This document shows, in pieces, positions 1-31,565 of a stretch of DNA of 64,000 bases. The DNA comes from Escherichia coli (GTDB lineage: Bacteria > Pseudomonadota > Gammaproteobacteria > Enterobacterales > Enterobacteriaceae). The stretch lies in assembly GCF_965641715.1 (NCBI RefSeq), contig NZ_OZ282453.1; one strand, given 5' to 3'. The notes under the pieces were generated by a model. The model ran no database searches. It saw only the letters and a list, made by a program, of their open reading frames with translations, and was not told where the DNA came from. Position 1 is the stretch's first letter. Every line of letters begins with the position of its first letter. A program made the translations under genes and the position numbers.

Positions 1-203
1 GCTATATGGAAGCAGAAGCCGCCCGGCTGGGCCTCGGATTGGCCTATGTTCCTGTTGAACTGGTCGCGGATGATTTAGAACACGGTAAGCTTATCAGGGT
101 GTTGCAGCGTTACAGCCTGCGAATGGAGGGATTGTTTCTCTATTACCCTCATCGCAACGTCTCCCCCGCTCTGCGGATGGTCATTGATACATTGAAAATC
201 TGA
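1..203 (+). CDS. LysR-family regulator, C-terminal fragment (gene begins upstream of window)
   Basis: ORF 6..203 reads like the C-terminal effector-binding end of a LysR-type regulator; no start in window. Confidence 0.4.
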   Translation, partial: YMEAEAARLGLGLAYVPVELVADDLEHGKLIRVLQRYSLRMEGLFLYYPHRNVSPALRMVIDTLKI

Positions 204-3391: not shown

Positions 3392-4621
3392 TTATGCTGG
3401 CCAATCCCACTGCTGATAGGCAGAGAATAGGCGCGTGAGCTCAGCAGGCGCAAGAATATCAACAATATTAGCTCTGTAGCTATGCGATTTACCTAATGGA
3501 ACATTTTCGAAATGATTAGCTTGATAAGGATTAAAATCGTGAAGCTCACCTAATGTTGAGATATCGGTATTAATAGTTTTAAGCCAAGAAACAAGAATTA
3601 CTTTTGCCCCTGTTCTCTGTATGTAAGCTCTTGCCGATTCAAAACTATAGCCTCGAGTTGTTATATCATCTATAAGAAGTACTGTTTTACCAGGGCCTAA
3701 AGGTGGTTTTTTATAGGTAGTTCTAGGATTTCTGTGTGGCTGAGAATTAAGACAAATTGTATTAAGTTGATTGCAATGGTCAATTGCAACTCCCTCATTT
3801 CTTGCTTTTTGAGATTTTTTGGAAGTCGTATGCCTTAAAATAAGATCTGGGATATACGTCTTGCGAAAACATTTTCCAAATATTGAAATCGCTTCATCCA
3901 TGATATTATTCCCATATCCTTGCTTATGCCCTGGATAAACACTAACATAATTAATCATCTTATGAATGCCACTAAAATAGAGACTGGATATTAAGGCACT
4001 CGTCCAAAATTCAGGATGGCCTAATCCATGTTTAGCAGCAGCACGAGCATCTTCAGAGTAAAGAGTATACTCTTCCTTCATGGTGCTGAAAGGAGCAAGT
4101 GCATAGAAATTAAAATCACCATCGTGAATTTCATGACACCAAAGATGCTCTCTTAAACAGAAGGTATCTATAAATCTAGCAATATCTTTAGGGGTTGAAA
4201 ACTCGAAACCATAATCTGTTTTGTCTGCCCACCATGTAGCTCTTAAAAAGAGCAACTCACCATTAACTGCTGTTTGCATGTCGTTTATCGAAGCACCAAT
4301 GTACAAAGTTTCTGTACTTTCCCAACCCATCAAATCAAGGACATATTTTGTAGCATCCGCAGTTGGCTTCCCTGGAATGCTCTTATCTTTCGCTCGACAA
4401 AGATATTTAAATTCTCCCCAATGCTTTTGTAACACATCCTCTAAAGGGGTTCTTTCATCTCCGACAACCCAACCCCTGTTAGTGAATACAACAAACTCGA
4501 TCTTTTTAGTTCTGAAATATCTAATTAATTTATCTACCTCTGCAAAGATTTCGCTATCGATCTTTCCCTTAGGCACAAGAATATCTTCAACACTAAGAAT
4601 CACACCCTTAATTTTGCTCAT
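3392..4621 (-). CDS. satellite cargo: protein with N-terminal Rossmann-like (possibly degenerate HAD-like) domain and C-terminal type I phosphoribosyltransferase domain; ShosT-like candidate
   Basis: PRTase signature VLLIDDITTRG near C-terminus; N-terminal YIGASINDMQTAVNG resembles HAD motif IV; AT-rich; 10-nt gap to upstream gene. Confidence 0.55.
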   Translation of the reverse strand: MSKIKGVILSVEDILVPKGKIDSEIFAEVDKLIRYFRTKKIEFVVFTNRGWVVGDERTPLEDVLQKHWGEFKYLCRAKDKSIPGKPTADATKYVLDLMGWESTETLYIGASINDMQTAVNGELLFLRATWWADKTDYGFEFSTPKDIARFIDTFCLREHLWCHEIHDGDFNFYALAPFSTMKEEYTLYSEDARAAAKHGLGHPEFWTSALISSLYFSGIHKMINYVSVYPGHKQGYGNNIMDEAISIFGKCFRKTYIPDLILRHTTSKKSQKARNEGVAIDHCNQLNTICLNSQPHRNPRTTYKKPPLGPGKTVLLIDDITTRGYSFESARAYIQRTGAKVILVSWLKTINTDISTLGELHDFNPYQANHFENVPLGKSHSYRANIVDILAPAELTRLFSAYQQWDWPA

Positions 4622-4631
4622 TTCATCTTCC

Positions 4632-5696
4632 TTAGAGATCTAAGCTCTGCTGTATCGGCTGTGCTTTTAAATCATGATTATTATTCAAAATATAATTACT
4701 CATCTCATTCAATTCAAAAGGCATTAAAAAAGATAAAGAATTTCTATTTTCTTCAGCAAACTTCAATTCTGGTCTACTTTCATACGTAGTAGGAAGATAT
4801 GGACTCGCTATCTTTTTTGCATACTTAAAAGCATAATCAACAGTATGTGATGTTCCACTTTTAATATTCCATTCGACTGGTATTAGTGAATCACATAAAG
4901 CAGCCTGGATTCTGTTACGCCTTACAAAATTTTCTGCGCTATATGTTTGTTCAGGTAGATACTCGGTAACGATAGCCCCACCATTAGAAACTATTGCTCG
5001 ATATAACTCTTTAGAACCTTTCGGATACTCGACAAAAATCCCATTACCCAATACCGCAATAGTTGGAATGCCATATCTCAGCGATTCATAATGACAACAT
5101 TGATCTATTCCTGTCGCCAAACCACTGACTGTTGAAACATCTTTAGAATATAGAGAAGAAACAATCAGTTTTACTAGAAAAATACCATCATCCGTTGGCT
5201 TTCGTGTCCCCACAATTGCAACAGATTTCTTATTAAGAAGTTCATAATTACCATGAACAAAAATCCAAAATGGCGGATCGCTTATGTTCTTTAATGATTG
5301 AGGAAATGTAGCCTGATCATAAAAGGTGAGCACAATACCATTTTTATTGAGTTCACGAGCTCTCTCCAGTCCCTTAGACCAAAGGTCTTGTTGAAATGTT
5401 TCCCAAGATATATTTTTAGGCAAGGAAACTCTTAGATATCCTGCCAAGGCATCAGCTGTATTATCTTTTAATATATTCTTAAATCCAATTTTGGATTGAT
5501 AGATTTTGCGAAGCGTCCAGTAACCAACCCCCTTTAGACAAGTTAAGGCAAGAAACGCAATAATTTCATTTTTCCAAAACTCTCTAACTTCAGTGTAATC
5601 TTTATATTCCATTTTACGTTTGCCTTTTAGATTACAACCCGTACTCAACACAAAAAATTTAGAAAATTGTTGCCAAAAGCATATTATAAATAGCAT
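4632..5696 (-). CDS. satellite cargo: DprA/Smf-like (SLOG-type Rossmann) protein; ShosA-like candidate; probable start at MEYKDY (5612)
   Basis: DprA core motifs VAIVGTRKPT, GLATGID, TIAVLGNGI, YPKGSKELYRAI, FVRRNRIQAAL; AT-rich. Confidence 0.55.
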   Translation of the reverse strand: MLFIICFWQQFSKFFVLSTGCNLKGKRKMEYKDYTEVREFWKNEIIAFLALTCLKGVGYWTLRKIYQSKIGFKNILKDNTADALAGYLRVSLPKNISWETFQQDLWSKGLERARELNKNGIVLTFYDQATFPQSLKNISDPPFWIFVHGNYELLNKKSVAIVGTRKPTDDGIFLVKLIVSSLYSKDVSTVSGLATGIDQCCHYESLRYGIPTIAVLGNGIFVEYPKGSKELYRAIVSNGGAIVTEYLPEQTYSAENFVRRNRIQAALCDSLIPVEWNIKSGTSHTVDYAFKYAKKIASPYLPTTYESRPELKFAEENRNSLSFLMPFELNEMSNYILNNNHDLKAQPIQQSLDL

Positions 5697-6027: not shown

Positions 6028-6309
6028 TCAGACAGGAATCTGCTGACGGCTTGACAGTTTTGACGCGGAGCCATAGCGATTGAGCGTTTGCTGTTGTTTT
6101 ACCGGGGTTTGTGATTTGTCTGGTTCCTGTTCATTGCGCCGGGGTTTCATGATTATCTTATCCACACTCTCCAGTGCCGTAAATGTGCAGGAACATTCCA
6201 GATTCTGGCACTGATACCACGAGCGTTTAACTGACGGAGCTTCATAGGCTGCTGTTCTGGCGTGTGCAACTGTACCGCATTCCGGACATTTAAGTGCCAT
6301 TAATATCAC
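6028..6309 (-). CDS. Ogr/Delta-family zinc-finger late transcription activator
   Basis: CPECG...HARTA...YQCQNLECSCTF matches the Ogr/Delta C4 zinc-finger pattern. Confidence 0.8.
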   Translation of the reverse strand: MILMALKCPECGTVAHARTAAYEAPSVKRSWYQCQNLECSCTFTALESVDKIIMKPRRNEQEPDKSQTPVKQQQTLNRYGSASKLSSRQQIPV

Positions 6310-6857
6310 TCCTGTATATCGTTAATGTCATTCAGGCGTTGCTGAAAACGCAGATGTTGTGCCGGGGTGTAAGAGCCCTGGCAATCACGAATCATACTGG
6401 GGTCAGGCATCAAACCGGATTCATCCAGGATCTCACGATAATCCCCGGCAATTTCAGGCGGTGTTATTGCCAGCTGGCGAACCAGAGCACTGCGTAATAT
6501 ACGGGACGCAACGTCAACCCCTCCGCGCCCCTTCAGGAACGGAGCCAGTGCAGATGTCAGGGCTGCCCCATTCGCCTGCATAAAATTGCTGAGAGCGGCT
6601 TCTGTGCAGGCCTCCATCAGTAAATGCTGCGAGTAAATGCATTCGCGCGCAGCACAGTTAATTTGCCATTTCAGCACATCCAGACGTTCCCGCAGGAATT
6701 CGAGCTGTCGGGCATAATCTGCTGGTTTTTCTGTGGCAGCGAGGAGAGATGTTATCTGTTGTTCAACGGCTTTTCGGCTCTCACTATGTCTGGCCCACAG
6801 AATACGGGCATTCCGAAAACTGGTAAGTACCTGGTCAGGTGTGCCTCGGGCCGTCAT
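6306..6857 (-). CDS. psu: Psu-like (polarity suppression / capsid decoration) protein
   Basis: 183 aa, recalled similarity to P4 Psu (KWQ.N.AA, FMQ.NGAAL.SALAP, FTPAQ); translationally coupled to sid and delta. Confidence 0.55.
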   Translation of the reverse strand: MTARGTPDQVLTSFRNARILWARHSESRKAVEQQITSLLAATEKPADYARQLEFLRERLDVLKWQINCAARECIYSQHLLMEACTEAALSNFMQANGAALTSALAPFLKGRGGVDVASRILRSALVRQLAITPPEIAGDYREILDESGLMPDPSMIRDCQGSYTPAQHLRFQQRLNDINDIQE

Positions 6858-7597
6858 ACTGCTTTCTCCTTCTCAGCAAGTTCCTGACGAACCTTTATTT
6901 TATGCATAGCTGCTGGAGAGAGTTGATTACTGAAATCCAGACGCGCCGCATAATCCGGGGCAACTCCCGCCAGTTTAAACACCGGGTCCTGTTCAGGCAT
7001 CGCATCGTTAGCCAGAGCCGGTCTGGTGATATGTTTATGAATAAAGTCTTTCAGCACTGTGTCCGGGTCATTAACTGAATTCACCACACCCACAACGGCA
7101 CTGGCTTCCCGGCCCATTGTGGATTTAAGCAGGCTCAGCGTCTGAATAAGCGCTTTTCCATGCGACTGCATAAAATCCTCCCAGATTTGTTTTGCGCGAA
7201 TATCCACAAGAATGTTATGCGCGTGGATATACTTTCCGGCTAATTCCGCAGCTTTCTGCGGCAAAAGTGCATTTTCGCTTTCCTGAGCCGCCAGCAGCTC
7301 ATCAAAATCCTCAAGCGTTTCTCGTCCCAGCGCAATTTCCGTGCGCAGTTTTTTCATTTCCTTTGAGACCACGCCCTGACTTTCACGAAACAGCGTGCGC
7401 CACTCCTCATTCAGTGTATTCGTCGTGGATTCCATTTCAGCGCGACGCTGGCGGATTGTCGCAATATTATCCGCTGCCGCTTTCTGCTGACGACGTGCTT
7501 CAAGCCATGCGTTTCTGGCTGTGTTCATGGTTTCCAGTGCCCGCTGCGTTACAGCCGGAAAAGTGGAAAGGTTGTTATTCACTGCGGTGTTGTTCAT
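6854..7597 (-). CDS. sid: Sid-like capsid size-determination (external scaffold) protein
   Basis: 247 aa helical protein first in the late operon upstream of psu/delta, size and position as P4 Sid. Confidence 0.5.
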   Translation of the reverse strand: MNNTAVNNNLSTFPAVTQRALETMNTARNAWLEARRQQKAAADNIATIRQRRAEMESTTNTLNEEWRTLFRESQGVVSKEMKKLRTEIALGRETLEDFDELLAAQESENALLPQKAAELAGKYIHAHNILVDIRAKQIWEDFMQSHGKALIQTLSLLKSTMGREASAVVGVVNSVNDPDTVLKDFIHKHITRPALANDAMPEQDPVFKLAGVAPDYAARLDFSNQLSPAAMHKIKVRQELAEKEKAV

Positions 7598-7631
7598 GAC
7601 TTCTCCTGTCGGGTTGGTTCGTTACGTCAAT

Positions 7632-7687
7632 TGTGTCGTGGCTGACACAAGCACACTATCGGTGCTCAGTGTGTGGTGGCTGGCACA
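7632..7687 (-). promoter_or_regulatory. Two TGT-N12-ACA dyads (Ogr/Delta-type activator sites) upstream of sid
   Basis: TGT(7632-7634)-N12-ACA(7647-7649) and TGT(7670-7672)-N12-ACA(7685-7687), 35-90 bp upstream of sid start. Confidence 0.45.
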
Positions 7688-7775
7688 ACGGGCGCTTGCG
7701 GTTATTCAGACGTGGCTATGAAAGCCAGCCAGATAAAAATGCCCACTGTTTCAGTCTGCTTTATGTCCCTGATGC

Positions 7776-7964
7776 GGTGGAACAGGTGAAACATGTGTTA
7801 CAGCTTTGTTTTATAAATCATTTATATACACTGCACCGGTGGAACATCGCGGGTAACAAGGTGGAACAGCGGATTGGCTGGCGTTACATCTGTTCCACCT
7901 CACTATTTCAGAAGGTGGAACAGGTTCAGCCCCTGTAAAATACGGTTGTTCCACCTGTTTCACC
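7776..7964. repeat. Iteron cluster: 6 perfect GGTGGAACA/TGTTCCACC 9-mers plus 2 variants in both orientations (crr/ori-like)
   Basis: copies at 7776, 7838, 7860, 7891(inv), 7914, 7947(inv); variants at 7785 and 7956; directly downstream of primase gene. Confidence 0.55.
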
Positions 7965-7998
7965 TGTTACCCTTAATAAATAAGACTCACGCAAAGCC

Positions 7999-10671
7999 TT
8001 AACCCGGCACCTCGCTGTTGAAGACATAGAGCCTGCGGGGATTCATCTCTGGCGGGCGAATGGTTGTCTGGAGTTTGCCATCAGTGGAGGGCAGCAGGTA
8101 TCCACGATCTGCGCACAGACGCGCCACCTTGCGCGGGTCAAATCCCCTGCAGATTTCTTTCCAGCCGGACGGCATGACATAAAACGTAGTGACAGCTTCC
8201 GTGCCCTGCGCGGTACTGCCTTTCTCCACCCTGCGCCAGCCCACCATATTGGCGGGGCGGTTGCGCTCGTCATACCAGTCTGCAAAGCGGCTGTACTGAT
8301 TCGCGGTAAAGAAACTGCGAACCTGCTCCAGTGCGGCGATATCTTCCTGATTGGCGGTGTGCCCGCGCTCTTTCAGCCATGCGTTCAGGCAGACGCGGGT
8401 TGCCCGCAATGCTTCACCCTCAGGCCAGCCGGTGATACCCTGACGGGTTGCCAGTTCACCTGCCATCGCCACCAGTGCAAAGCGGTTCACAGCCCGGCCC
8501 ACCTGATTGCCTGCATCTTTCGGAGTCAGGGCGGCAGCATATTCCTTCATCAGCGATTTTGCCTGTGCCGTTAGTCCGTTAAGATCAGCGGTCAGTGCTT
8601 TCAGCCACTCCCGGAACGGCGAACCGTAGTAGCAGGACGTGGCCCATTCAAGATGCTCTGCCAGAGCCTTGCCGCTGTCGAAGCCGTGCAGCTCCTCAAA
8701 AACGCCAAACTTCCCGGAATCGCTGGGGATCTGGATCATCCTGACTTCCATCCCGGCAAAAGTACGCTCACCGGCCTTTGCCGCATGTTCGGTCAGAGAT
8801 AACTCGCCAGTTGAAAAGAACAACAGGCGCCACTGCTTACGGGTACGCAGTTCACCGTCCGTACCGGCACGACCCTTGCCCTGACCGTTTGCCAGCATGT
8901 AGGCGATATTGCCTGCCTCGCGTCCGTCAACTTCCCGGATCTCATCAAGCATCATGGCGGCATCGTTGCGGCGGCTGGCACATCCCTCCAGCGCGTTGCC
9001 GGTGGCCCGCCATGTCTGCCAGTAGTCAGGCCCGCCGCAGACGGAGGTTGCCGCTTTCATGGTGGTGGTCTTACCGTCTGTCGATTCCCCTTTGAGGTGG
9101 TAGCCGCCGCCGTCCATACCAACCAGCCGTAACAGTGGTGCAGCAAAGGCCAGGCTGACAGCAAATGCCACGCGGGAGTTGCCGGTACAGTAGCGGGATA
9201 CGTTCTCCCGCCATTCCTCTGTTGTGCCCGACACGCGGAAATCACGCCCCTGCACGGAAGTGGTCTGGAGAATGACACCCTCTGCACCTTCACCGCTGAC
9301 CTCATCCTGCAGGACGTAAACCTGACCATGCCAGCCAGTACGGCTGACGCAGGTCACGCGACGTTCCGGTTTACACAGTGAGATATATTCCATCAGGCGT
9401 GCGCGTGCCTCACCGGTGGTGCTGATATAAGACAGCCCGTTAACAAGCAGTACCCGGCGCAGTTCCTCACCACTGCCGCTCAGCATTTCCATCGGCATCG
9501 CCCAGCGGCGACGCTCACCCCACGTATCTTCCCATTCCAGCAGTCGTCCGAAGTTACCGCCATCGGCATCGCAGGTGATTGCCGTCACGCGCAGCGGGCT
9601 GCATATTTTGACGTTCTGGATCTCCGTCTCACCGTTGCGCTGTACCTGCTTTTCATACCAGAGATATTCCTGGGTAAGACGGAACCCGTGCGGCAGTTGC
9701 GTGCGGCCTTCCCCGCACAGTACCAGACCGTTGCGAAAGGCTTCACGGGCACGGGTAATACCGTGCTCCCGATGAAAGTCATTCCAGTCAGCCTTAATCT
9801 CTCCTGGTGGCAGCGTCATCCAGCCGCCAACAGCTTTTGCCGCCCGTTCAGCAAAGGCTCTGCCGGGATTCTCCCCCCCGTCCTGAAAATCGTTATCACC
9901 GGCGATGATAATTTTTACCTCAGGCCAGCGTGCCCGCAGCGACTGCGCCACATTGGGCAGGTTGCCCGCAGATATGGCAGCCACTACGCATCCGGCAGTG
10001 AGCTGGCTTACCGTCAGCGCCGTAGCGTAACCTTCGGTAATCACCACCTGTACCGGTGGTTCAGACGGTAACGGGCTGAGCGACACAAACGCGCCTTTCA
10101 TCGTGCTGCCGGGCAGTATGCTTTTTTCACCCGTCGGGGCGATAAGCTGTGCACCGGTCACGGCTCCGGTGTTGGTCGTGAGTGGTAACAGCAGGGAACC
10201 AGCAGGAAAATCCTTACCGCTGATATGCTGCACGCTTCCGGTCAGAGAGGCCGGGTATCCGGCGAACCCTTTTCCTGCCAGATAGGCACTTTCTCCCGTG
10301 TGGCTCTCTTTCATCAGCGTCGCCACGGTAAGGCTCATGTCGCGTTTAGGGGCTTTTTGTCTGGCAGGCTTAACAGGCAGTTCCTGCACATCCGGCACAT
10401 TAAGCACCTGCGCCACCTGCTGCGCAGCCTTTCTGACGTTGTAGCCGGTTACGAGCTTAACCAGATCCAGACCGTCACCATTGCCACACTGGCTGCAGAT
10501 CCACGTCCCGCGCCCGTCAAGGTCATCGAGGCGAAAACGATCCTTGCCCCCACATTTCGGGCAGGGACCGTGCCTGCCGTTTTCAGGTACATCAATACGC
10601 AGCATATGCAGAATAACGGGCCATTTCCCCCGCGCGGCGGCTGAAATCTGCGTAACCGTCTGTATTGTCAT
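7999..10671 (-). CDS. P4 alpha-like primase/helicase (zinc finger + toprim + D5-type NTPase)
   Basis: N-terminal CPKCGG...CSQCG, Walker A GESTDGKTT, 890 aa. Confidence 0.8.
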   Translation of the reverse strand: MTIQTVTQISAAARGKWPVILHMLRIDVPENGRHGPCPKCGGKDRFRLDDLDGRGTWICSQCGNGDGLDLVKLVTGYNVRKAAQQVAQVLNVPDVQELPVKPARQKAPKRDMSLTVATLMKESHTGESAYLAGKGFAGYPASLTGSVQHISGKDFPAGSLLLPLTTNTGAVTGAQLIAPTGEKSILPGSTMKGAFVSLSPLPSEPPVQVVITEGYATALTVSQLTAGCVVAAISAGNLPNVAQSLRARWPEVKIIIAGDNDFQDGGENPGRAFAERAAKAVGGWMTLPPGEIKADWNDFHREHGITRAREAFRNGLVLCGEGRTQLPHGFRLTQEYLWYEKQVQRNGETEIQNVKICSPLRVTAITCDADGGNFGRLLEWEDTWGERRRWAMPMEMLSGSGEELRRVLLVNGLSYISTTGEARARLMEYISLCKPERRVTCVSRTGWHGQVYVLQDEVSGEGAEGVILQTTSVQGRDFRVSGTTEEWRENVSRYCTGNSRVAFAVSLAFAAPLLRLVGMDGGGYHLKGESTDGKTTTMKAATSVCGGPDYWQTWRATGNALEGCASRRNDAAMMLDEIREVDGREAGNIAYMLANGQGKGRAGTDGELRTRKQWRLLFFSTGELSLTEHAAKAGERTFAGMEVRMIQIPSDSGKFGVFEELHGFDSGKALAEHLEWATSCYYGSPFREWLKALTADLNGLTAQAKSLMKEYAAALTPKDAGNQVGRAVNRFALVAMAGELATRQGITGWPEGEALRATRVCLNAWLKERGHTANQEDIAALEQVRSFFTANQYSRFADWYDERNRPANMVGWRRVEKGSTAQGTEAVTTFYVMPSGWKEICRGFDPRKVARLCADRGYLLPSTDGKLQTTIRPPEMNPRRLYVFNSEVPG

Positions 10672-11051
10672 ACTTCCCCCTGATACAACGTCACACCAGT
10701 ACTGCAGAAGTCATCAAAGGTCGCCGGAAGCGTGCGGTACATCTCCGCCATTACTTCACAGCCGCGCGCGGTCAGTACCGGCGGCGCGGTCAGCAGTGAC
10801 GGCTCCAGCATGTCAGTCAGCAGTGCCAGCGCGGCAGCGGCGCCCTGTGCTTCGCCGTACTCGTTAATCAGTGCGCACTCGATATGCAGCGCAATGGCCA
10901 TTTCAATACGCTCCACCGTCAGGCTGTGCGGACCATACTGATCACTGCCAGTTTCGTTCAGCATTTTCTGCCGCCATGCTGAAGCAATAGCCCGCCGGTA
11001 AAGCGCGGTTGTCATTTCTGCCGGGAAAATGGAAACCTGCGGCTGGTTCAT
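10668..11051 (-). CDS. hypothetical satellite protein
   Basis: ORF translationally coupled (4-nt overlap) to primase gene. Confidence 0.4.
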   Translation of the reverse strand: MNQPQVSIFPAEMTTALYRRAIASAWRQKMLNETGSDQYGPHSLTVERIEMAIALHIECALINEYGEAQGAAAALALLTDMLEPSLLTAPPVLTARGCEVMAEMYRTLPATFDDFCSTGVTLYQGEV

Positions 11052-11332
11052 CTGGCACCTCCTTCAATCAGTGCACAGCTGTGCGCAATATCCGTCAAAT
11101 CTGCCCGCAGGTACTCCATCAGCGCGGCGACACCATGCGCACAGCCAGCGTCCAGTGCTCCGGCCTGAGACGGGTATTCAGAAAAGAGAAGCTGGAGCAT
11201 GTCGCAGGCATTTCTTGCGCGGGTCAGCTTTCCGAAACTGTCCTCTGACAACCCATAGGCAAAAGCACCGGTATTGTGTTTTTCAGGCAAAGTGTGGCCC
11301 TGAGCACCGTTGTGCCCGTTTGAAATATTCAT
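11048..11332 (-). CDS. hypothetical satellite protein
   Basis: ORF coupled by 4-nt overlap to downstream gene. Confidence 0.35.
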   Translation of the reverse strand: MNISNGHNGAQGHTLPEKHNTGAFAYGLSEDSFGKLTRARNACDMLQLLFSEYPSQAGALDAGCAHGVAALMEYLRADLTDIAHSCALIEGGAR

Positions 11333-11363
11333 CGTGGATTACTCCGTTTTCAGCGGTATTTTG

Positions 11364-11724
11364 TCAGAGAAACTTTGAATAGTGACCGTCGTCAGGCTCA
11401 GCAGAACGCCGTATGCTACGCTCCCGCCAGCGGATAAATAGCACAGACGGATGCAGTGTCAGCGGGCCGGAACCACTACCGCCTGCAGGAGCTGGTGCAG
11501 GCTTAAAGAGCGGTACATCAAACAGGCGCGTATACCGCTGTTCAAACCATGCCAGAGGGCAGGAAGAAAGCTGGTTGTCGCTGTCATGACGTATCAGCAC
11601 TTCACAGCTGAATTCAGGATTAACCAGCGCCACAGAGGGCGAGGCTTCAATTAATCGGATAATCGTGACCGTCCAGCCACGTTCATGCTGCCAGCGTTCG
11701 CCGGGGTGCGGATAATTACGCATG
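11364..11724 (-). CDS. hypothetical satellite protein (start MRNYPHPG at 11724)
   Basis: start ATG overlaps stop of upstream small ORF (ATGCGTAA). Confidence 0.35.
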
Positions 11725-11892
11725 TTCACCTCCGCAGGGAATGCGCCCGGCAAAGCTCAGTACATAATCCGGGGCAAGTCTTCGCCGCGCTGACCGCTCG
11801 TTATCTGCGGTGATCCTTAACATCACAGGACGGGCATTGCGTTGACTGCGGTTGATCGCCGCAAATAACCAGGTACACTTCTGTTTAGCCAT
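11716..11892 (-). CDS. small protein, possibly host cell division inhibitor Icd-like (58 aa)
   Basis: hand-translated MAKQKCTWLFAAINRSQRNARPVMLRITADNERSARRRLAPDYVLSFAGRIPCGGEHA; below the 60-aa cutoff of the ORF track. Confidence 0.35.
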   Translation of the reverse strand: MAKQKCTWLFAAINRSQRNARPVMLRITADNERSARRRLAPDYVLSFAGRIPCGGEHA

Positions 11893-11983
11893 CTTCGTTA
11901 CCTCTTATAACGGTTGGTTAAATGCCCGATTTGTGTTCCCGCACAATCGGGCATTGCTTTTACAAGCGAACTATACTTACAAT

Positions 11984-12027
11984 GGTAATTACCATGTAGT
12001 CATCATATTCCAGGGTAATTACCATGT
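11984..12027. promoter_or_regulatory. Tandem operator-like repeats GGTAATTACCATGT (each containing palindrome GGTAATTACC), 30 bp apart
   Basis: copies at 11984-11997 and 12014-12027; second overlaps the ATG of the small + strand ORF. Confidence 0.45.
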
Positions 12028-12197
12028 CAACACCACAAGAGAAACGTTCCCCACCATTCCAAATGCGTCTTACCGACGATTTTAGGTTGCAACTCGAAAA
12101 AGAAATGCGCAAAGATGGAGATAGCGCGTTGGCAACTTGGATTAAAAGAATTTTACGTAAAGAACTACAATCACGCGGGATTGACCCTAAAGGTTAA
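12024..12197 (+). CDS. small ribbon-helix-helix-like DNA-binding protein (57 aa)
   Basis: hand-translated MSTPQEKRSPPFQMRLTDDFRLQLEKEMRKDGDSALATWIKRILRKELQSRGIDPKG; strand-helix-helix pattern; only + strand gene in the satellite. Confidence 0.4.
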   Translation: MSTPQEKRSPPFQMRLTDDFRLQLEKEMRKDGDSALATWIKRILRKELQSRGIDPKG

Positions 12198-12229
12198 TCA
12201 GTTAAATATTACTAACTATCAATTAAGGC

Positions 12230-12520
12230 TTAGGGAGTAGGTGATAATCTATTCCCTTTATTAATTGCTCTTGCCTTATTTCTCATCCCCTCAAACTGTT
12301 GACCTGAGTTTTCTTCAAACCCATCTCGCCACTTATAATAATCAGCAGCGCGCCATCGGGACATCCGACCTATTTTTATAGGTTTTGGAAAGCGATTCAG
12401 AGAAATCAATCGATAAATCCATTTGTCACTTAATAAACAATCGGAAGTAATAAACTTCATATCGATCAGAGAATCCATTGAAGGTCGTTGCAAAGTAGTA
12501 TTATCATGTTTAGATAACAT
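12230..12520 (-). CDS. alpA: AlpA-family phage transcriptional regulator
   Basis: KFITSDCLLSDKWIYRLISLNRFPKPIKIGRMSRWRAADYYKWRDGF matches AlpA-type HTH proteins. Confidence 0.7.
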   Translation of the reverse strand: MLSKHDNTTLQRPSMDSLIDMKFITSDCLLSDKWIYRLISLNRFPKPIKIGRMSRWRAADYYKWRDGFEENSGQQFEGMRNKARAINKGNRLSPTP

Positions 12521-12645
12521 TCATCATTCTCCGTTTATCTAAGTCTATTGGCTTCAACACGGAAAATTAAAACATAGGTTATAAATGAGAAAAATGTGAC
12601 TAATGAAAAAAATCCAAAATCATTAGTCACAATAATTGTTAACAT

Positions 12646-13470
12646 TTAGTTAAACTTAATGTTTTTCATGCAACTACGTAGCAAGCTAACAACAGTATCA
12701 TAGCTCAAAGGTGGTTCTCCGGTCTTAGGCCAGAACTCACTGGCATGTTGAAAAAGATAATCAGCTATCGCTGCTGGACTCTCTCTTCTTAGCCTCATAT
12801 CACGATGATAGAGCGAAATAATAGCCATGAGTATTTCAGTTCGAGGAACAGCATGTTTTTGTTTTTGCGCCTCAGATTGTGATTTATATTTATTGGCGTT
12901 TTTTATCCGTTTTTGTTCGCATAAGACTATATCAATGAATTTTTGAATCTGTACCTTTGTAATCCACAAAACCTCAAAAAGATAATAATTTTCTTTTTCA
13001 TCATAATTTACATAAAGAATTACCTTACAATTTATATTAGGCGTACCCGCCAGTAGAAAATGAATAGGCCAGGAATCCGGTTGCCCCTCATGCTTAACTA
13101 ACAGATCTTTATATTCATAATCAACAGCCCATAAACCGGATATAAAGCATCGAATAAAACCATTTTTATCAATTAAATTATTTTCATCAGGGATTCTTAT
13201 AGAGCTTAAGTCTGACAACATAATATTGCCATTTCTATCTCGTGGTAAATATTTCAGATTAGATAAGAACTCATCCAGTTGACCATCAATCTTCAAACCA
13301 CATGAAACATCATACTCATCATCATGGAATTCCATGCATAGCTCTACATCTCGTTCTCTGGCAAACCAGAGTATATCCTTTTCACTACAACCAATTTTTT
13401 CTGAAGCTTCATCCAACTGGTAGTAATCTCTGAGCAGAGAATCAGTATTATTAATTTTTAAAATATTCAT
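12646..13470 (-). CDS. hypothetical AT-rich protein of unknown function, translationally coupled to integrase
   Basis: 274 aa; ATGA start/stop overlap with int; low GC relative to flanks; no motif recognised. Confidence 0.4.
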   Translation of the reverse strand: MNILKINNTDSLLRDYYQLDEASEKIGCSEKDILWFARERDVELCMEFHDDEYDVSCGLKIDGQLDEFLSNLKYLPRDRNGNIMLSDLSSIRIPDENNLIDKNGFIRCFISGLWAVDYEYKDLLVKHEGQPDSWPIHFLLAGTPNINCKVILYVNYDEKENYYLFEVLWITKVQIQKFIDIVLCEQKRIKNANKYKSQSEAQKQKHAVPRTEILMAIISLYHRDMRLRRESPAAIADYLFQHASEFWPKTGEPPLSYDTVVSLLRSCMKNIKFN

Positions 13471-14726
13471 TTATGAGTACCAATTAGCTCAGATAAATAA
13501 TTAGCATACCATTGCATCATTTCTCTTCTCCCTTCGAGATATTGGGCATGGTTATAAATTCCACGAATAGAGTTTTTGTCCGAATGAGCAAGCTGGGTTT
13601 CAATCCAAGCGCTGTTAAATCCTTTCTCATGTAGAATTGTACTCATCGTATGCCTGAAACCATGTCCCGTAACACGCCCTGCATATCCAATACGTTTAAA
13701 CACCTGATTGATGCTTGCTTCACTCATAAATTTGCTAGGATCGTTGCGTCCAGGGAACATCAGCGGGTAGTTCCCAGTTAGTTCTTTCAAACTTTTGAGA
13801 TGGGATAATGCTTGTTTTGGTAACGGGACAATATGGCTCCTACGCATTTTCATACGTTCTTTTGGGATCTCCCACACCGCATTATCAAAATCCACCTCTC
13901 GCCACTCACCTGCTCGTAGTTCTCCAGTTCGTAGACCTGTCAGGATAAGTAAATGCGCCCCCAACAATACAATTGGACTTCCTGAATAAGAATTAAGGGC
14001 ATTAAAGAACTCCGGTAGTTCGTTGGCTTTGAGGAATGGATAGTGGACTGCTTCATGTCCTTGCATCGCACTGGCAAGATCCGGTGCCGGATTGTAGATT
14101 GCCCTACCCGTTACGATGGCATAGCGAAAAACTTCACCGCATCGCTGACGGACTTTCTTCGCTTTCTCCATAGCGCCTCGAGCTTCTATCAACCTCAGAA
14201 CTTCAAGCAGTTCAAGGGGCTGAATATCAGCTATAGGTCTGTGCCCAATATGCGGAAAAATGTCTTTCTCAAATGCCTCAATGATGTCGGAAGCATAGCC
14301 CTCAGACCATTTGGATGATTTCATTTTGTGCCACTCTAACGCCACTTCTCTGAATGGGTTAAGTGTCTCAATCGCTGCGTTTAAAGCCTGCTTTTTGGCT
14401 TTTTTGACTTCGCCGGGATCTTCACCTGCTGCGAGTAGTTTCTTTGCGTCTTCTCGTTTTTGTCTGGCATCAGCAAGTGTGACTGTTGGATAAACACCAA
14501 AGGACAATCGTTTCTCTTTACCAGCAAAACGGTATTTCATACGCCAGTAACGCGAGCCATTAGGTTCGACCTGAAGGTATAGGCCACCTCCATCAAACAG
14601 CTTATAGCTCTTCTCTTTTCCTTTCGCAGCTTCAACCTTGCGGGCATTCAGCATCATTGGGGGCACATTTCCTAGACCGAACAGAACATGCCCCTGATTG
14701 TGCCCCCAACCGCGTGTTGATTTCAA
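13467..14726 (-). CDS. int: P4-type tyrosine integrase (probable start at MLNARKV, 14654)
   Basis: KEKSYKLFDGGGLYLQVEPNGSRYWRMKYRFAGKEK N-terminus and C-terminal HGFRHT...Y catalytic region; adjacent to tRNA-Thr. Confidence 0.9.
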   Translation of the reverse strand: MKSTRGWGHNQGHVLFGLGNVPPMMLNARKVEAAKGKEKSYKLFDGGGLYLQVEPNGSRYWRMKYRFAGKEKRLSFGVYPTVTLADARQKREDAKKLLAAGEDPGEVKKAKKQALNAAIETLNPFREVALEWHKMKSSKWSEGYASDIIEAFEKDIFPHIGHRPIADIQPLELLEVLRLIEARGAMEKAKKVRQRCGEVFRYAIVTGRAIYNPAPDLASAMQGHEAVHYPFLKANELPEFFNALNSYSGSPIVLLGAHLLILTGLRTGELRAGEWREVDFDNAVWEIPKERMKMRRSHIVPLPKQALSHLKSLKELTGNYPLMFPGRNDPSKFMSEASINQVFKRIGYAGRVTGHGFRHTMSTILHEKGFNSAWIETQLAHSDKNSIRGIYNHAQYLEGRREMMQWYANYLSELIGTHK

Positions 14727-14820: not shown

Positions 14821-14838
14821 ATGGTGCCGATAATAGGA
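14821..14838. repeat. attL core: 18 bp at thrW 3' end, repeated at 3194..3211
   Basis: exact 18-mer match. Confidence 0.6.
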
Positions 14839-14897
14839 GTCGAACCTACGACCTTCGCATTACGAATGCGCTGCTCTACCAACTGAGCTATATCGGC
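14822..14897 (-). tRNA. thrW: tRNA-Thr (anticodon CGU)
   Basis: reverse complement reads GCCGATATAGCTCAGTTGGTAGAGCAGCGCATTCGTAATGCGAAGGTCGTAGGTTCGACTCCTATTATCGGCACCA. Confidence 0.9.
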
Positions 14898-31384: not shown

Positions 31385-31565
31385 GCGCATGGCCCCCGGC
31401 GAAGATTGATTTAAGAATTTTCAGGTCGGATGCGGCGTGAACGCATTATTCGGCCTACGGTTCGCGTACAGATTTGTAGGCATGATAAGACGCGTCAGCG
31501 TCGCATCAGGCATCAGCGCACAAATGCCGGATGCGGCGTAAACGTCTTATCCGGCCTACGCCAGA
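31385..31565. repeat. REP/BIME cluster (about 3 REP units in alternating orientation)
   Basis: gccggatgcggcgtgaacgc..., gtaggcatgataagacgcgtcagcgtcgcatcaggcat, gccggatgcggcgtaaacgtcttatccggcctacg. Confidence 0.8.

What the first reader, a model, noticed from the sequence alone, without database searches (positions are those of the whole stretch)
11984..12197. Small ribbon-helix-helix-like ORF on the opposite strand with two palindromic operator-like repeats over its start
A 57-aa ORF not in the ORF track (below the length cutoff) is the only + strand gene in the satellite. Two copies of GGTAATTACCATGT, each containing a 10-bp palindrome, lie 30 bp apart, the second overlapping the ATG. This is the pattern of an autoregulated small repressor and could be part of the satellite immunity or lysogeny switch.
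Basis: seen in the sequence. Interest (0 to 1): 0.45.

Follow-up and report, generated by a model that had tools for sequence, protein, structure and literature searches.

The report
Small repressor switch of a phage satellite
A conserved 57-residue DNA-binding protein of the ribbon-helix-helix kind, with two palindromic binding sites and a neighbouring antisense RNA not found in Rfam, most likely keeps the replication genes of a P4-like phage satellite switched off, a job that P4 itself does with an RNA.

Summary
GGTAATTACCATGT occurs at 11984-11997 and 12014-12027. The 10-bp palindrome occurs nowhere else in the 64 kb. The 57-aa ORF (12024-12197, +) is a real gene under purifying selection, conserved across Enterobacterales and Pasteurellaceae, and unnamed in Pfam and NCBIfam.

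A near-consensus promoter on the minus strand (TTGACA-17-TATGAT) drives the icd-like to primase operon. One palindrome sits in its spacer and the other at its start site. This geometry is kept in all 19 representative loci scored, and the palindrome sequence changes together with the protein's N-terminal arm and strand.

A weaker plus-strand promoter abuts the first palindrome, so self-regulation is plausible.

Just upstream lies a conserved, structured ~77-nt plus-strand RNA. It is antisense to the ribosome-binding site and start codon of the operon's first gene and has no Rfam family.

P4 has neither the protein nor this RNA. The window has none of P4's CI/C4 RNA.

Best reading: a protein-plus-antisense-RNA immunity or replication-control cassette. 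All evidence is computational.

The parts
12024..12197 (+). 57-aa ribbon-helix-helix protein gene (MSTPQEKRSPPFQMRLTDDFRLQLEKEMRKDGDSALATWIKRILRKELQSRGIDPKG): predicted strand 11-14, helix 18-31, G-D-S turn, helix 36-50
11982..11997 (.). Operator O1: palindrome GGTAATTACC at 11984-11993 (14-bp symmetry 11982-11995; direct-repeat copy 11984-11997). It lies between the two -10 hexamers and over both predicted start sites.
   Evidence: Conserved position about -40 from the ATG in other loci.
12014..12027 (.). Operator O2: palindrome GGTAATTACC at 12014-12023 (repeat copy to 12027). It lies in the spacer of the minus-strand promoter and overlaps the SD and ATG of the 57-aa ORF.
   Evidence: Conserved at -10 from the ATG in other loci.
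12002..12030 (-). Early promoter of the icd-like to primase operon: -35 TTGACA 12030-12025, 17-bp spacer, -10 TATGAT 12007-12002. Predicted start about 11995-11997.
   Evidence: Promoter scan, 11 of 12. Same position and 9-11 of 12 matches in all 19 representative loci scored.
11954..11983 (+). Candidate promoter of the 57-aa gene: -35 TTGCTT 11954-11959, 18-bp spacer, -10 TACAAT 11978-11983, abutting O1. Predicted start about 11988-11991.
   Evidence: Read from the sequence. It was below the scan threshold (8 of 12). The script listed an equal-scoring alternative for the window (CGGGCA-18-TATACT); the assignment here rests on homology to L004 (TTGCTT-18-TACAAT). Homologous TTGnTT-16..18-TAnnnT ends at -41/-42 in 12 of the 18 other loci scored.
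11853..11965 (+). Candidate cis-antisense small RNA with its promoter: -35 TTGATC 11853-58, -10 TACACT 11875-80, RNA about 11886-11963. It has two stem-loops (the first carries anti-SD CCUC in its loop, the second is a terminator followed by a U-run). It is complementary to the 5' UTR, SD and AUG of the icd-like gene.
   Evidence: Alignment of 29 loci. 13 of 21 pairs show compensatory changes. 96.1% paired against 85.0% in shuffles, 0 of 500. 83 G.U cells on + against 8 on -. TAnnnT at a fixed offset in 29 of 29 loci. Covariance model hit 11884-11969, 80 bits. MFE -29.9 kcal/mol, z -6.1. Rfam gives only sub-threshold symR.
11716..11892 (-). First gene of the controlled operon: 58-aa Icd-like cell-division inhibitor. 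It is followed by ORFs of 129, 94 and 127 aa and the 890-aa primase (7999-10671).
   Evidence: NCBIfam NF033153, 84 bits against a cut-off of 25. Annotation.
12232..12257 (+). Terminator-like hairpin 35 nt after the stop codon of the 57-aa gene, inside the 3' end of the convergent alpA/vis-like gene (12230-12520, -).
   Evidence: Terminator scan. ORF list.

Best explanation
The 57-aa protein is a ribbon-helix-helix (Arc/Mnt/CopG-type) dimer. It binds the two palindromes O1 and O2.

The two sites bracket the -10 hexamer of the strong minus-strand promoter. That promoter drives the satellite's early operon: the Icd-like division inhibitor, three small ORFs and the alpha-type primase. Occupied operators would exclude RNA polymerase and keep the integrated satellite quiet, giving immunity or replication control.

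O1 also covers the predicted start of the protein's own weaker promoter, which faces the early promoter head-on. The repressor would therefore limit its own synthesis.

A second layer is a ~77-nt plus-strand RNA encoded just upstream. It is perfectly complementary to the leader, ribosome-binding site and start codon of the first operon gene, and would block translation of transcripts that escape.

Shown by computation: the gene is real and conserved; the fold; the positions of sites and promoters; covariation of operator with protein; the RNA structure and its strand. Inferred: DNA binding, repression, autoregulation, RNA expression, and the biological role.
For: Fold:
- The linked-dimer AF2 model has strand 11-14 and helices 18-31 and 36-50 in both halves, with pLDDT about 88-94 there.
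- Foldseek puts F-plasmid relaxosome chains first (one of them, 9f0x_E, is named TraY), then AvtR.
- A G-D-S turn lies between the helices.

The gene is real:
- 85 clusters, most of them 57 aa, in many genera.
- dN/dS is about 0.1.

Target:
- Promoter TTGACA-17-TATGAT on the minus strand.
- It keeps a fixed position relative to the ORF start in all 19 representative loci scored.
- O2 is in the spacer and O1 at +1.

Specificity covariation:
- KRSP(P/Q)(F/Y)QMRL goes with GGTAATTACC.
- KRSPQFPMRL goes with GGTATATACC.
- K(T/S)xQYQ(I/L)RL goes with TGTAATTACA.
- RGNPPFQFRL goes with GTGTAATTACAC.
- In the hhalign register to Arc, the Q13-to-P change falls at the Arc Asn11 position and coincides with a change of the central bases.

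Module behaviour:
- L054-L056 carry a similar operon (95-97% identical primase; Icd-like protein 98-100% in L054/L055, 71% in L056) but a different protein and operator.
- In most of the 267 E. coli genomes whose match to this locus is only partial, homology to this locus ends inside the RNA hairpin.
- Right-hand neighbours vary, and some loci have no AlpA homologue detectable nearby.

RNA layer.
Against: - There is no experimental evidence of any kind: no binding, transcript or phenotype data.
- The sequence-level link to known RHH families is weak. Pfam gives nothing. PHROG 228 'Arc-like repressor' scores E 0.002. hhalign to Arc and Mnt gives E 0.002-0.004 with low probability.
- The AF2 monomer model gave one long helix. 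The RHH fold appears only in an artificial linked dimer.
- The protein's own promoter is weak by consensus (8 of 12) and was not reported by the scan.
- The 30-bp centre-to-centre spacing is wider than in Arc or Mnt operators, so the stoichiometry is unknown.
- Operator covariation could in principle track another co-inherited protein.
- One locus (L037) has the cassette together with C4 and isrK RNAs, so the cassette is not simply a substitute for the P4 RNA immunity.
Confidence: 0.7

Rival explanations
1. Same molecular mechanism, different biological role. The RHH protein and the countertranscript RNA form a copy-number or replication-control circuit for the plasmid or replicative state of the satellite, like CopG plus RNAII of plasmid pMV158, rather than a lysogeny immunity switch.
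For: The controlled operon ends in a primase or replicase in every locus that shows one. The pairing of an RHH protein with a cis-antisense RNA over the translation start of the downstream operon matches the CopG/RNAII logic (my knowledge of pMV158). P4-type elements can replicate as plasmids (stated in PMC8628076).
Against: The protein is transcribed against the operon, not within it as copG is. The operon also carries an Icd-like toxin gene, which fits a 'keep everything off' immunity role. All loci examined are chromosomally integrated next to integrases.
Confidence: 0.15
2. The palindromes are bound by another factor: the adjacent AlpA/Vis-like protein, a helper-phage protein or a host protein. 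The 57-aa protein would then do something else.
For: P4 Vis is a DNA-binding regulator of P4 promoters (my knowledge; annotated as 'excisionase and transcriptional regulator'). An alpA-like gene lies next to the ORF in the window. In the comparison with L054-L056 the swap of module includes the alpA/int side as well.
Against: The GGTAATTACC operator and its position are kept in loci where tblastn finds no homologue of the window's AlpA, or where the integrase or unrelated genes follow directly. The operator class follows residues of the small protein's arm and strand. Short perfect palindromes fit a symmetric RHH dimer.
Confidence: 0.08
3. The core function is a toxin-antitoxin-like addiction module. 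The Icd-like protein is the toxin, the antisense RNA is a type I antitoxin (SymR/SymE-like), and the RHH protein is only an accessory regulator.
For: The first operon gene is Icd-like. The RNA covers its SD and AUG. Repeated sub-threshold symR hits fall at the homologous spot in four loci.
Against: The symR scores are 26-32 bits against a gathering score of 61. In many loci the first gene of the operon is not Icd-like, or a primase follows closely, yet the RNA and RHH are kept. The operators sit on the promoter of the whole operon.
Confidence: 0.05
4. The ORF is a chance reading frame and the repeats are only promoter elements.
For: The ORF is short, has no Pfam or NCBIfam family, and has no strong promoter of its own.
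Against: It is conserved at 57 aa across genera, with dN/dS about 0.1 and a third-position excess of variable sites. It gives a confident RHH model.
Confidence: 0.02

Closest known systems
Phage P22 immI region: Mnt and Arc (RHH repressors) with sar antisense RNA controlling the antirepressor operon
   Different: There is no significant sequence similarity. Here two separate 10-14-bp palindromes lie 30 bp apart, instead of one 17-21-bp operator. The host element is a satellite and the operon encodes a division inhibitor and a primase. The details of P22 are from my own knowledge and were not tested here.
Plasmid pMV158 CopG (RHH) plus countertranscript RNAII control of repB
   Same: Dual control of a replication gene: an RHH transcriptional repressor and a cis-antisense RNA over the translation start.
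   Different: copG lies in the same operon as repB. Here the RHH gene faces the operon through head-on promoters. There is no sequence match to the CopG/RHH_1 Pfam family. The comparison rests on my own knowledge.
Satellite phage P4 immunity (CI RNA / C4 family with the seqA leader, isrK)
   Same: Same place in the element, between the vis/alpA gene and the early operon leading to the alpha primase. Same presumed task of keeping that operon silent in the prophage.
   Different: P4 uses an RNA that causes premature termination. Rfam finds C4 and isrK in P4 but not in the window. P4 has no homologue of the 57-aa protein and no match to the antisense RNA model.
Phage P2 immunity switch (C repressor, face-to-face Pe/Pc promoters, two operators flanking the -10 of Pe)
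   Same: Head-on promoters whose predicted start sites lie about 5-10 bp apart, and two repeated operators bracketing the -10 of the early promoter.
   Different: P2 C is not an RHH protein and its operators are direct repeats. The comparison is from my own knowledge and concerns circuit layout only.
YlcI/YnfO family (NCBIfam NF041551), small proteins of unknown function in prophages and P4-like satellites
   Same: It occupies the same slot. It is joined to a similar icd-to-primase operon and the same antisense RNA in at least one E. coli genome and probably in many, with its own upstream repeats. Distant members of the 57-aa family hit its model below the cut-off.
   Different: The window protein does not match the model at E <= 1. 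hhalign gives E 0.017. The repeats there are three direct copies of TGAATCGCAC, not palindromes.

Membership tests
Ribbon-helix-helix (Arc/MetJ/CopG) superfamily | Strand-helix-helix topology of about 45 residues | tested here: met
   The linked-dimer AF2 model has E11-14, H18-31 and H36-50 in both halves, pLDDT about 88-94.
Ribbon-helix-helix (Arc/MetJ/CopG) superfamily | Intertwined dimer with a two-stranded antiparallel ribbon | tested here: met
Ribbon-helix-helix (Arc/MetJ/CopG) superfamily | G-x-(S/T/N) turn at the start of the second helix | tested here: met
   D31-G32-D33-S34. Within A1, G32 and D33 are at least 90% conserved; in the 47-sequence A2 set, D31 and G32 are invariant.
Ribbon-helix-helix (Arc/MetJ/CopG) superfamily | Match to an existing RHH sequence profile (Pfam Arc, RHH_1 and others) | tested here: not met
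   Pfam: no domain with E <= 0.001. The PDB profile search finds only designed helical repeats. PHROG 228 'Arc-like repressor' scores E 0.002.
Ribbon-helix-helix (Arc/MetJ/CopG) superfamily | Sequence-specific binding to symmetric or repeated operator sites | not testable with these tools
   Indirect only: two palindromes at conserved positions, whose sequence covaries with the arm and strand residues.
P4-type RNA immunity (C4/CI RNA with isrK/seqA leader) | C4-family RNA and isrK-type leader downstream of the early promoter | tested here: not met
   Rfam finds both in P4 and in L037, but nothing in the window at the gathering score or at E <= 1.
SymR (Rfam RF01809) type I antitoxin RNA | Score at or above the Rfam gathering threshold | tested here: not met
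   31.6 bits in the window and 26.7-30.1 bits in three other loci, against a gathering score of 61.
SymR (Rfam RF01809) type I antitoxin RNA | Cis-encoded RNA overlapping the SD and start codon of a toxin gene on the other strand | tested here: met
   The predicted RNA at 11886-11963 (+) overlaps the start (11892) and leader of the Icd-like gene. Neither expression nor toxicity was tested.
YlcI/YnfO family (NF041551) | Score above the curated cut-off (30 bits) | tested here: not met
   The window protein gives no hit at E <= 1. Two distant family members score 22.3 and 18.7 bits.
P4-like satellite (context of the finding) | Integrase, alpA/vis, alpha primase, psu, and an ogr/delta zinc-finger gene in one cluster next to a tRNA gene | tested here: met
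   RefSeq annotation of a 99.9% identical locus. tRNA-Thr at 14822-14897. tblastn links to P4 int, alpha, delta and psu. The gene order differs from P4.

The most novel reading that the evidence does not exclude
The small RHH gene, its two operators, the head-on promoters and the adjacent antisense RNA form one portable 'immunity cassette'. It sets heteroimmunity groups among P4-like and PICI-like satellites of Enterobacterales and Pasteurellaceae. It is exchanged by recombination at a junction inside the RNA hairpin, and alternative small proteins (for example the YlcI/YnfO family) plug into the same slot. The antisense RNA would be a new RNA family, and the cassette a protein-based alternative, or addition, to the RNA immunity known from P4.
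Probability: 0.45. Interest if true: 0.65.

Novelty: new variant of a known kind. Interest (0 to 1): 0.55.

Why it matters
P4 is the textbook satellite, and its prophage immunity is RNA-based. Surveys of P4-like elements (PMC8628076, PMC10085698) define them by seven core genes and do not describe this gene; I found no paper on it.

If the cassette works as proposed, many P4-like and PICI-like satellites silence their replication and derepression genes with a small protein repressor plus a cis-antisense RNA. The specificity of that repressor can be read from a few residues and a 10-bp site.

That would give three things:
- a simple way to sort satellites into immunity groups;
- a handle for asking how a helper phage lifts repression;
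- a compact set of orthogonal repressor-operator pairs.

It would also give a likely function to a family of 'hypothetical proteins', and perhaps to the YlcI/YnfO family.

Tried and rejected
- Pfam scan of the protein: nothing.
- NCBIfam: nothing.
- PADLOC: nothing.
- PDB sequence-profile search: only designed helical repeat proteins, which I judged spurious helix-loop-helix similarity.
- AF2 on the monomer alignment: one long helix at pLDDT 73. I rejected this as uninformative for an obligate dimer and replaced it with a linked-dimer alignment.
I used it only for the register.
- Rfam on the region and on eight related loci: no family above threshold, only weak symR.
- tblastn against phage genomes: P4 has no homologue. 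The close hit is the 15-kb Pasteurella element Pmp8, and three further records match weakly (37% identity, E 5e-5).
- Literature searches for an RHH or Arc-like repressor in P4-like satellites or PICIs: none found. The hits read (PMC10111431, PMC8628076, PMC11773190) do not mention it.
- The idea that the direct repeats are P4-like seqA/seqC RNA target sites was dropped. They are 30 bp apart, flank no RNA gene, and no C4 RNA is present.
- The idea that the hairpin at 11921-11955 is a terminator or leader structure of the minus-strand mRNA was rejected. G.U pairs and the U-run are on the plus strand.

Full report
**Context.**
- The window from about 3.4 kb to 14.7 kb is a P4-like satellite integrated at tRNA-Thr (14822-14897), next to proA.
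- A 99.9% identical RefSeq locus is annotated as follows: integrase, a hypothetical 274-aa protein, an AlpA-type helix-turn-helix regulator, the 57-aa ORF (hypothetical protein WP_021537047.1), an Icd-like division inhibitor, two hypothetical proteins, a DUF5375 protein, a TOPRIM/DUF927 primase, a hypothetical protein, Psu, and an Ogr/Delta zinc-finger protein.
- These are followed by a DprA-like and a phosphoribosyltransferase gene.
- All are on the minus strand except the 57-aa ORF.

**Observation.**
- GGTAATTACCATGT occurs at 11984-11997 and 12014-12027.
- The 10-bp palindrome GGTAATTACC occurs exactly only there in 64 kb. With one mismatch allowed there are 6 sites against 1.58 expected (0 of 100 shuffles reach 6).
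- The second copy contains the ATG (12024) of a 57-codon ORF ending at 12197.

**The ORF is a real gene.**
- A search of 5.8 billion proteins found 85 clusters, most of them 57 aa. They come from Escherichia, Citrobacter, Salmonella, Klebsiella, Erwinia, Pantoea, Yersinia, Serratia, Xenorhabdus, Photorhabdus, Providencia, Gilliamella, Pasteurella and others. Most carry the label 'hypothetical protein' and a few 'Arc family DNA-binding protein'.
- The family is narrow: 20 representatives at 50% identity.
- Invariant or nearly invariant residues include R15, R21, Q23, L24, E25, D31, G32, D33, A37, W39, K41, K46, E47, L48, R51 and G52.
- Among 18 full-length coding sequences, the median pN is 0.16 against pS 0.79. 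dN/dS is 0.09-0.18 where it can be computed. Variable columns by codon position number 33/22/53.

**Fold.**
- Pfam, NCBIfam and PADLOC give nothing. PHROG 228 'Arc-like repressor' scores E 0.002.
- The monomer AF2 model was a single long helix. This is expected to be unreliable for an obligate dimer.
- I therefore aligned 47 homologues, each fused to itself through an 18-residue Gly/Ser linker, as in single-chain Arc.
- The resulting model has strand 11-14, helix 18-31 and helix 36-50 in both halves. pLDDT is about 88-94 in the structured blocks and pTM is 0.70.
- Foldseek agrees. Its top hits are F-plasmid relaxosome chains, one of which (9f0x_E) names TraY, followed by AvtR.
- The sequence lines up with Arc without gaps (PQFNLRW/PPFQMRL, ENGRS/KDGDS). 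hhalign finds this register, though with a weak score.
- I conclude that this is a new sequence family within the RHH superfamily.

**What the palindromes control.**
- The promoter scan finds one strong site in the region, and it is on the minus strand: -35 TTGACA (12030-12025), 17 bp, -10 TATGAT (12007-12002), 11 of 12 matches.
- O2 therefore fills the spacer of that promoter. O1 lies over its predicted start (about 11995-11997).
- The first codons of the ORF (ATG TCA A) are the complement of the -35.
- This promoter heads the icd-like to primase operon.
- A scan of one genome per species returned 58 related loci.
- In all 19 representative loci scored, the promoter is at the same place relative to the ORF: TTGACA starting at +6, a 17-18-bp spacer, and a -10 ending at -22 or -23, with 9-11 of 12 matches.
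- A weaker plus-strand promoter, TTGCTT (11954-59)-18-TACAAT (11978-83), abuts O1. For the window the script listed an equal-scoring alternative hexamer pair, so this assignment rests on homology to L004. TTGnTT-16..18-TAnnnT ends at -41/-42 in 12 of the 18 other loci scored.
- The two promoters face each other, with start sites a few bases apart and O1 between their -10 hexamers.

**The operators belong to this protein.**
- In the related loci the two sites keep their positions, O2 at -10 and O1 about 30-35 bp upstream.
- Their sequence changes with the N-terminal arm and strand of the protein, as the table shows.

| Arm and strand of the protein | Operator |
|---|---|
| KRSP(P/Q)(F/Y)QMRL | GGTAATTACC (O1 often GGTCGTTACC or GGTCATTACC) |
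| KRSPQFPMRL | GGTATATACC |
| K(T/S)xQYQ(I/L)RL | TGTAATTACA |
| RGNPPFQFRL | GTGTAATTACAC |

- In the Arc register, position 13 corresponds to Arc Asn11 at the dyad (my knowledge of the Arc-operator complex). The Q13-to-P class is the one whose central bases change (AATT to ATAT).
- Changes in the arm (SP to TD) go with the outermost base (G to T).
- Loci L054-L056 share the operon with the window (primase 95-97% identical; Icd-like protein 98-100% in L054/L055 and 71% in L056) but carry a different protein class and different operators.
- The genes to the right of the small gene vary: AlpA-like, Bro-N-like, toxin-antitoxin genes, or the integrase directly.
- tblastn finds homologues of the window's AlpA in only four loci. 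This argues against AlpA as the binder.

**A second layer noticed next to the finding.**
- Between the start of the first operon gene and the small gene's promoter, nearly every locus has a conserved ~80-nt element.
- In an alignment of 29 loci, RNAalifold predicts an outer stem, a stem-loop whose loop carries CCUC (the complement of the operon's SD), and a long hairpin followed by a U-run. Of 21 pairs, 13 show compensatory changes.
- 96.1% of cells are paired, against 85.0% in shuffles (0 of 500). The covariation score is 0.388 against 0.169. Slid controls pair at 30-52%.
- The structure belongs to the plus strand. There are 83 G.U cells on plus against 8 that would be G.U on minus, and 96.1% against 83.7% paired.
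- In the window the plus strand folds at -29.9 kcal/mol (z -6.1) and the minus strand at -25.0 kcal/mol (z -3.65).
- A TAnnnT hexamer lies exactly 7 nt upstream of AGCCAT in 29 of 29 distinct loci, against a background of 1.7%. This holds although the region codes for different N-termini.
- A plus-strand promoter is therefore conserved, with a start near 11886-11887.
- A covariance model built from the alignment hits once in the window (11884-11969, 80 bits). It also hits, always on the same strand and upstream of the small gene, 23 loci not used to build it. It finds nothing in P4.
- Rfam has no family for it, only sub-threshold symR hits at the same spot in four loci.
- The RNA would pair with the whole leader, SD and AUG of the Icd-like gene.

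**Comparison with P4 and others.**
- P4 (NC_001609) has no homologue of the protein. In the corresponding interval it has the C4/CI RNA and the isrK-type leader. The window has neither.
- The cassette is not strictly an alternative to the RNA immunity. A Pasteurella testudinis locus has the small gene, the antisense RNA, and also C4 and isrK.
- The 15-kb Pasteurella element Pmp8 has the small gene in the same divergent position before an Icd-domain gene and a primase.
- In E. coli, 332 of 5426 complete genomes match this locus, but only 65 match over its full length. In most of the other 267, homology stops at window 11918-11952, inside the RNA hairpin.
- One such genome has, in the same slot, a 61-aa YlcI/YnfO-family protein with an RHH-like pattern and three upstream TGAATCGCAC repeats. 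The antisense RNA is kept there.
- The region therefore behaves as an exchangeable specificity module.

**Mechanism and confidence.**
- I put 0.7 on this reading: an RHH dimer binds O1 and O2, shuts the early promoter and probably limits its own promoter. The antisense RNA acts as a translational back-up.
- Whether the biological role is prophage immunity or copy-number control (as with CopG/RNAII) cannot be decided here. The two are not exclusive.
- How a helper phage lifts repression is unknown.
- Read-through from the convergent alpA gene, and a role for the conserved C-terminal tail (RGIxPKG), are speculation.

**Verdict.** The finding is real and more interesting than first described, but it is a variant of well-known regulatory logic. 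Interest is 0.55. It is a new variant of a known kind.

Noticed in passing
window 11853-11965 (+): A conserved, structured ~77-nt plus-strand RNA candidate with its own conserved -10. It is antisense to the leader, SD and start codon of the Icd-like gene and has no Rfam family (only weak symR similarity). The covariance model R1 finds it in 23 further loci, always upstream of the small RHH gene.
   Followed up: yes
window 3392-5696 (-): The two genes at the far end of the satellite are ShosT (phosphoribosyltransferase, PADLOC E 3e-94) and ShosA (DprA-like, E 3e-90). This is a Shosta anti-phage defence system in the satellite's variable hotspot.
   Followed up: partly
L062 2685-3066 (E. coli 675SK2), junction at window about 11918-11952: In most of the 267 E. 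coli genomes whose match to this locus is only partial, homology ends inside the RNA hairpin. The one examined has a different small plus-strand gene there (YlcI/YnfO family, 61 aa, RHH-like pattern) with three direct repeats TGAATCGCAC. This looks like an exchangeable immunity module and hints at a function for the YlcI/YnfO family.
   Followed up: partly
window 6028-14726: The gene order (int, 274-aa ORF, alpA, RHH, icd..., alpha, 247-aa ORF, psu, ogr/delta) is all on one strand. It differs from P4, where sid-delta-psu are divergent from the alpha operon and int lies beyond the hotspot.
   Followed up: no
window 12646-13470 (-): A 274-aa ORF between the integrase and alpA has no match in PHROGs, NCBIfam or PADLOC. 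Its function is unknown.
   Followed up: no
L037 3507-3723 (Pasteurella testudinis): This locus has the small RHH gene and the antisense RNA, and also C4 and isrK RNAs downstream in the same operon. The protein cassette and the P4-type RNA immunity can therefore coexist.
   Followed up: no
L026, L027, L028, L030 (Photorhabdus): Two copies of the antisense RNA element lie about 1.2 kb apart on the same strand. In these loci the small ORF seems to start at a non-ATG codon or to be N-terminally altered.
   Followed up: no
window 6822-6831 and 10036-10045: One-mismatch copies of the operator palindrome (GGTAAGTACC, GGTAATCACC) lie inside the satellite, at the psu/247-aa ORF junction and inside the primase gene. 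They may be chance.
   Followed up: no
window 31479-31556 (-): Rfam match to naRNA4 (nucleoid-associated RNA, REP-derived), 74.1 bits, in the chromosomal part of the window.
   Followed up: no
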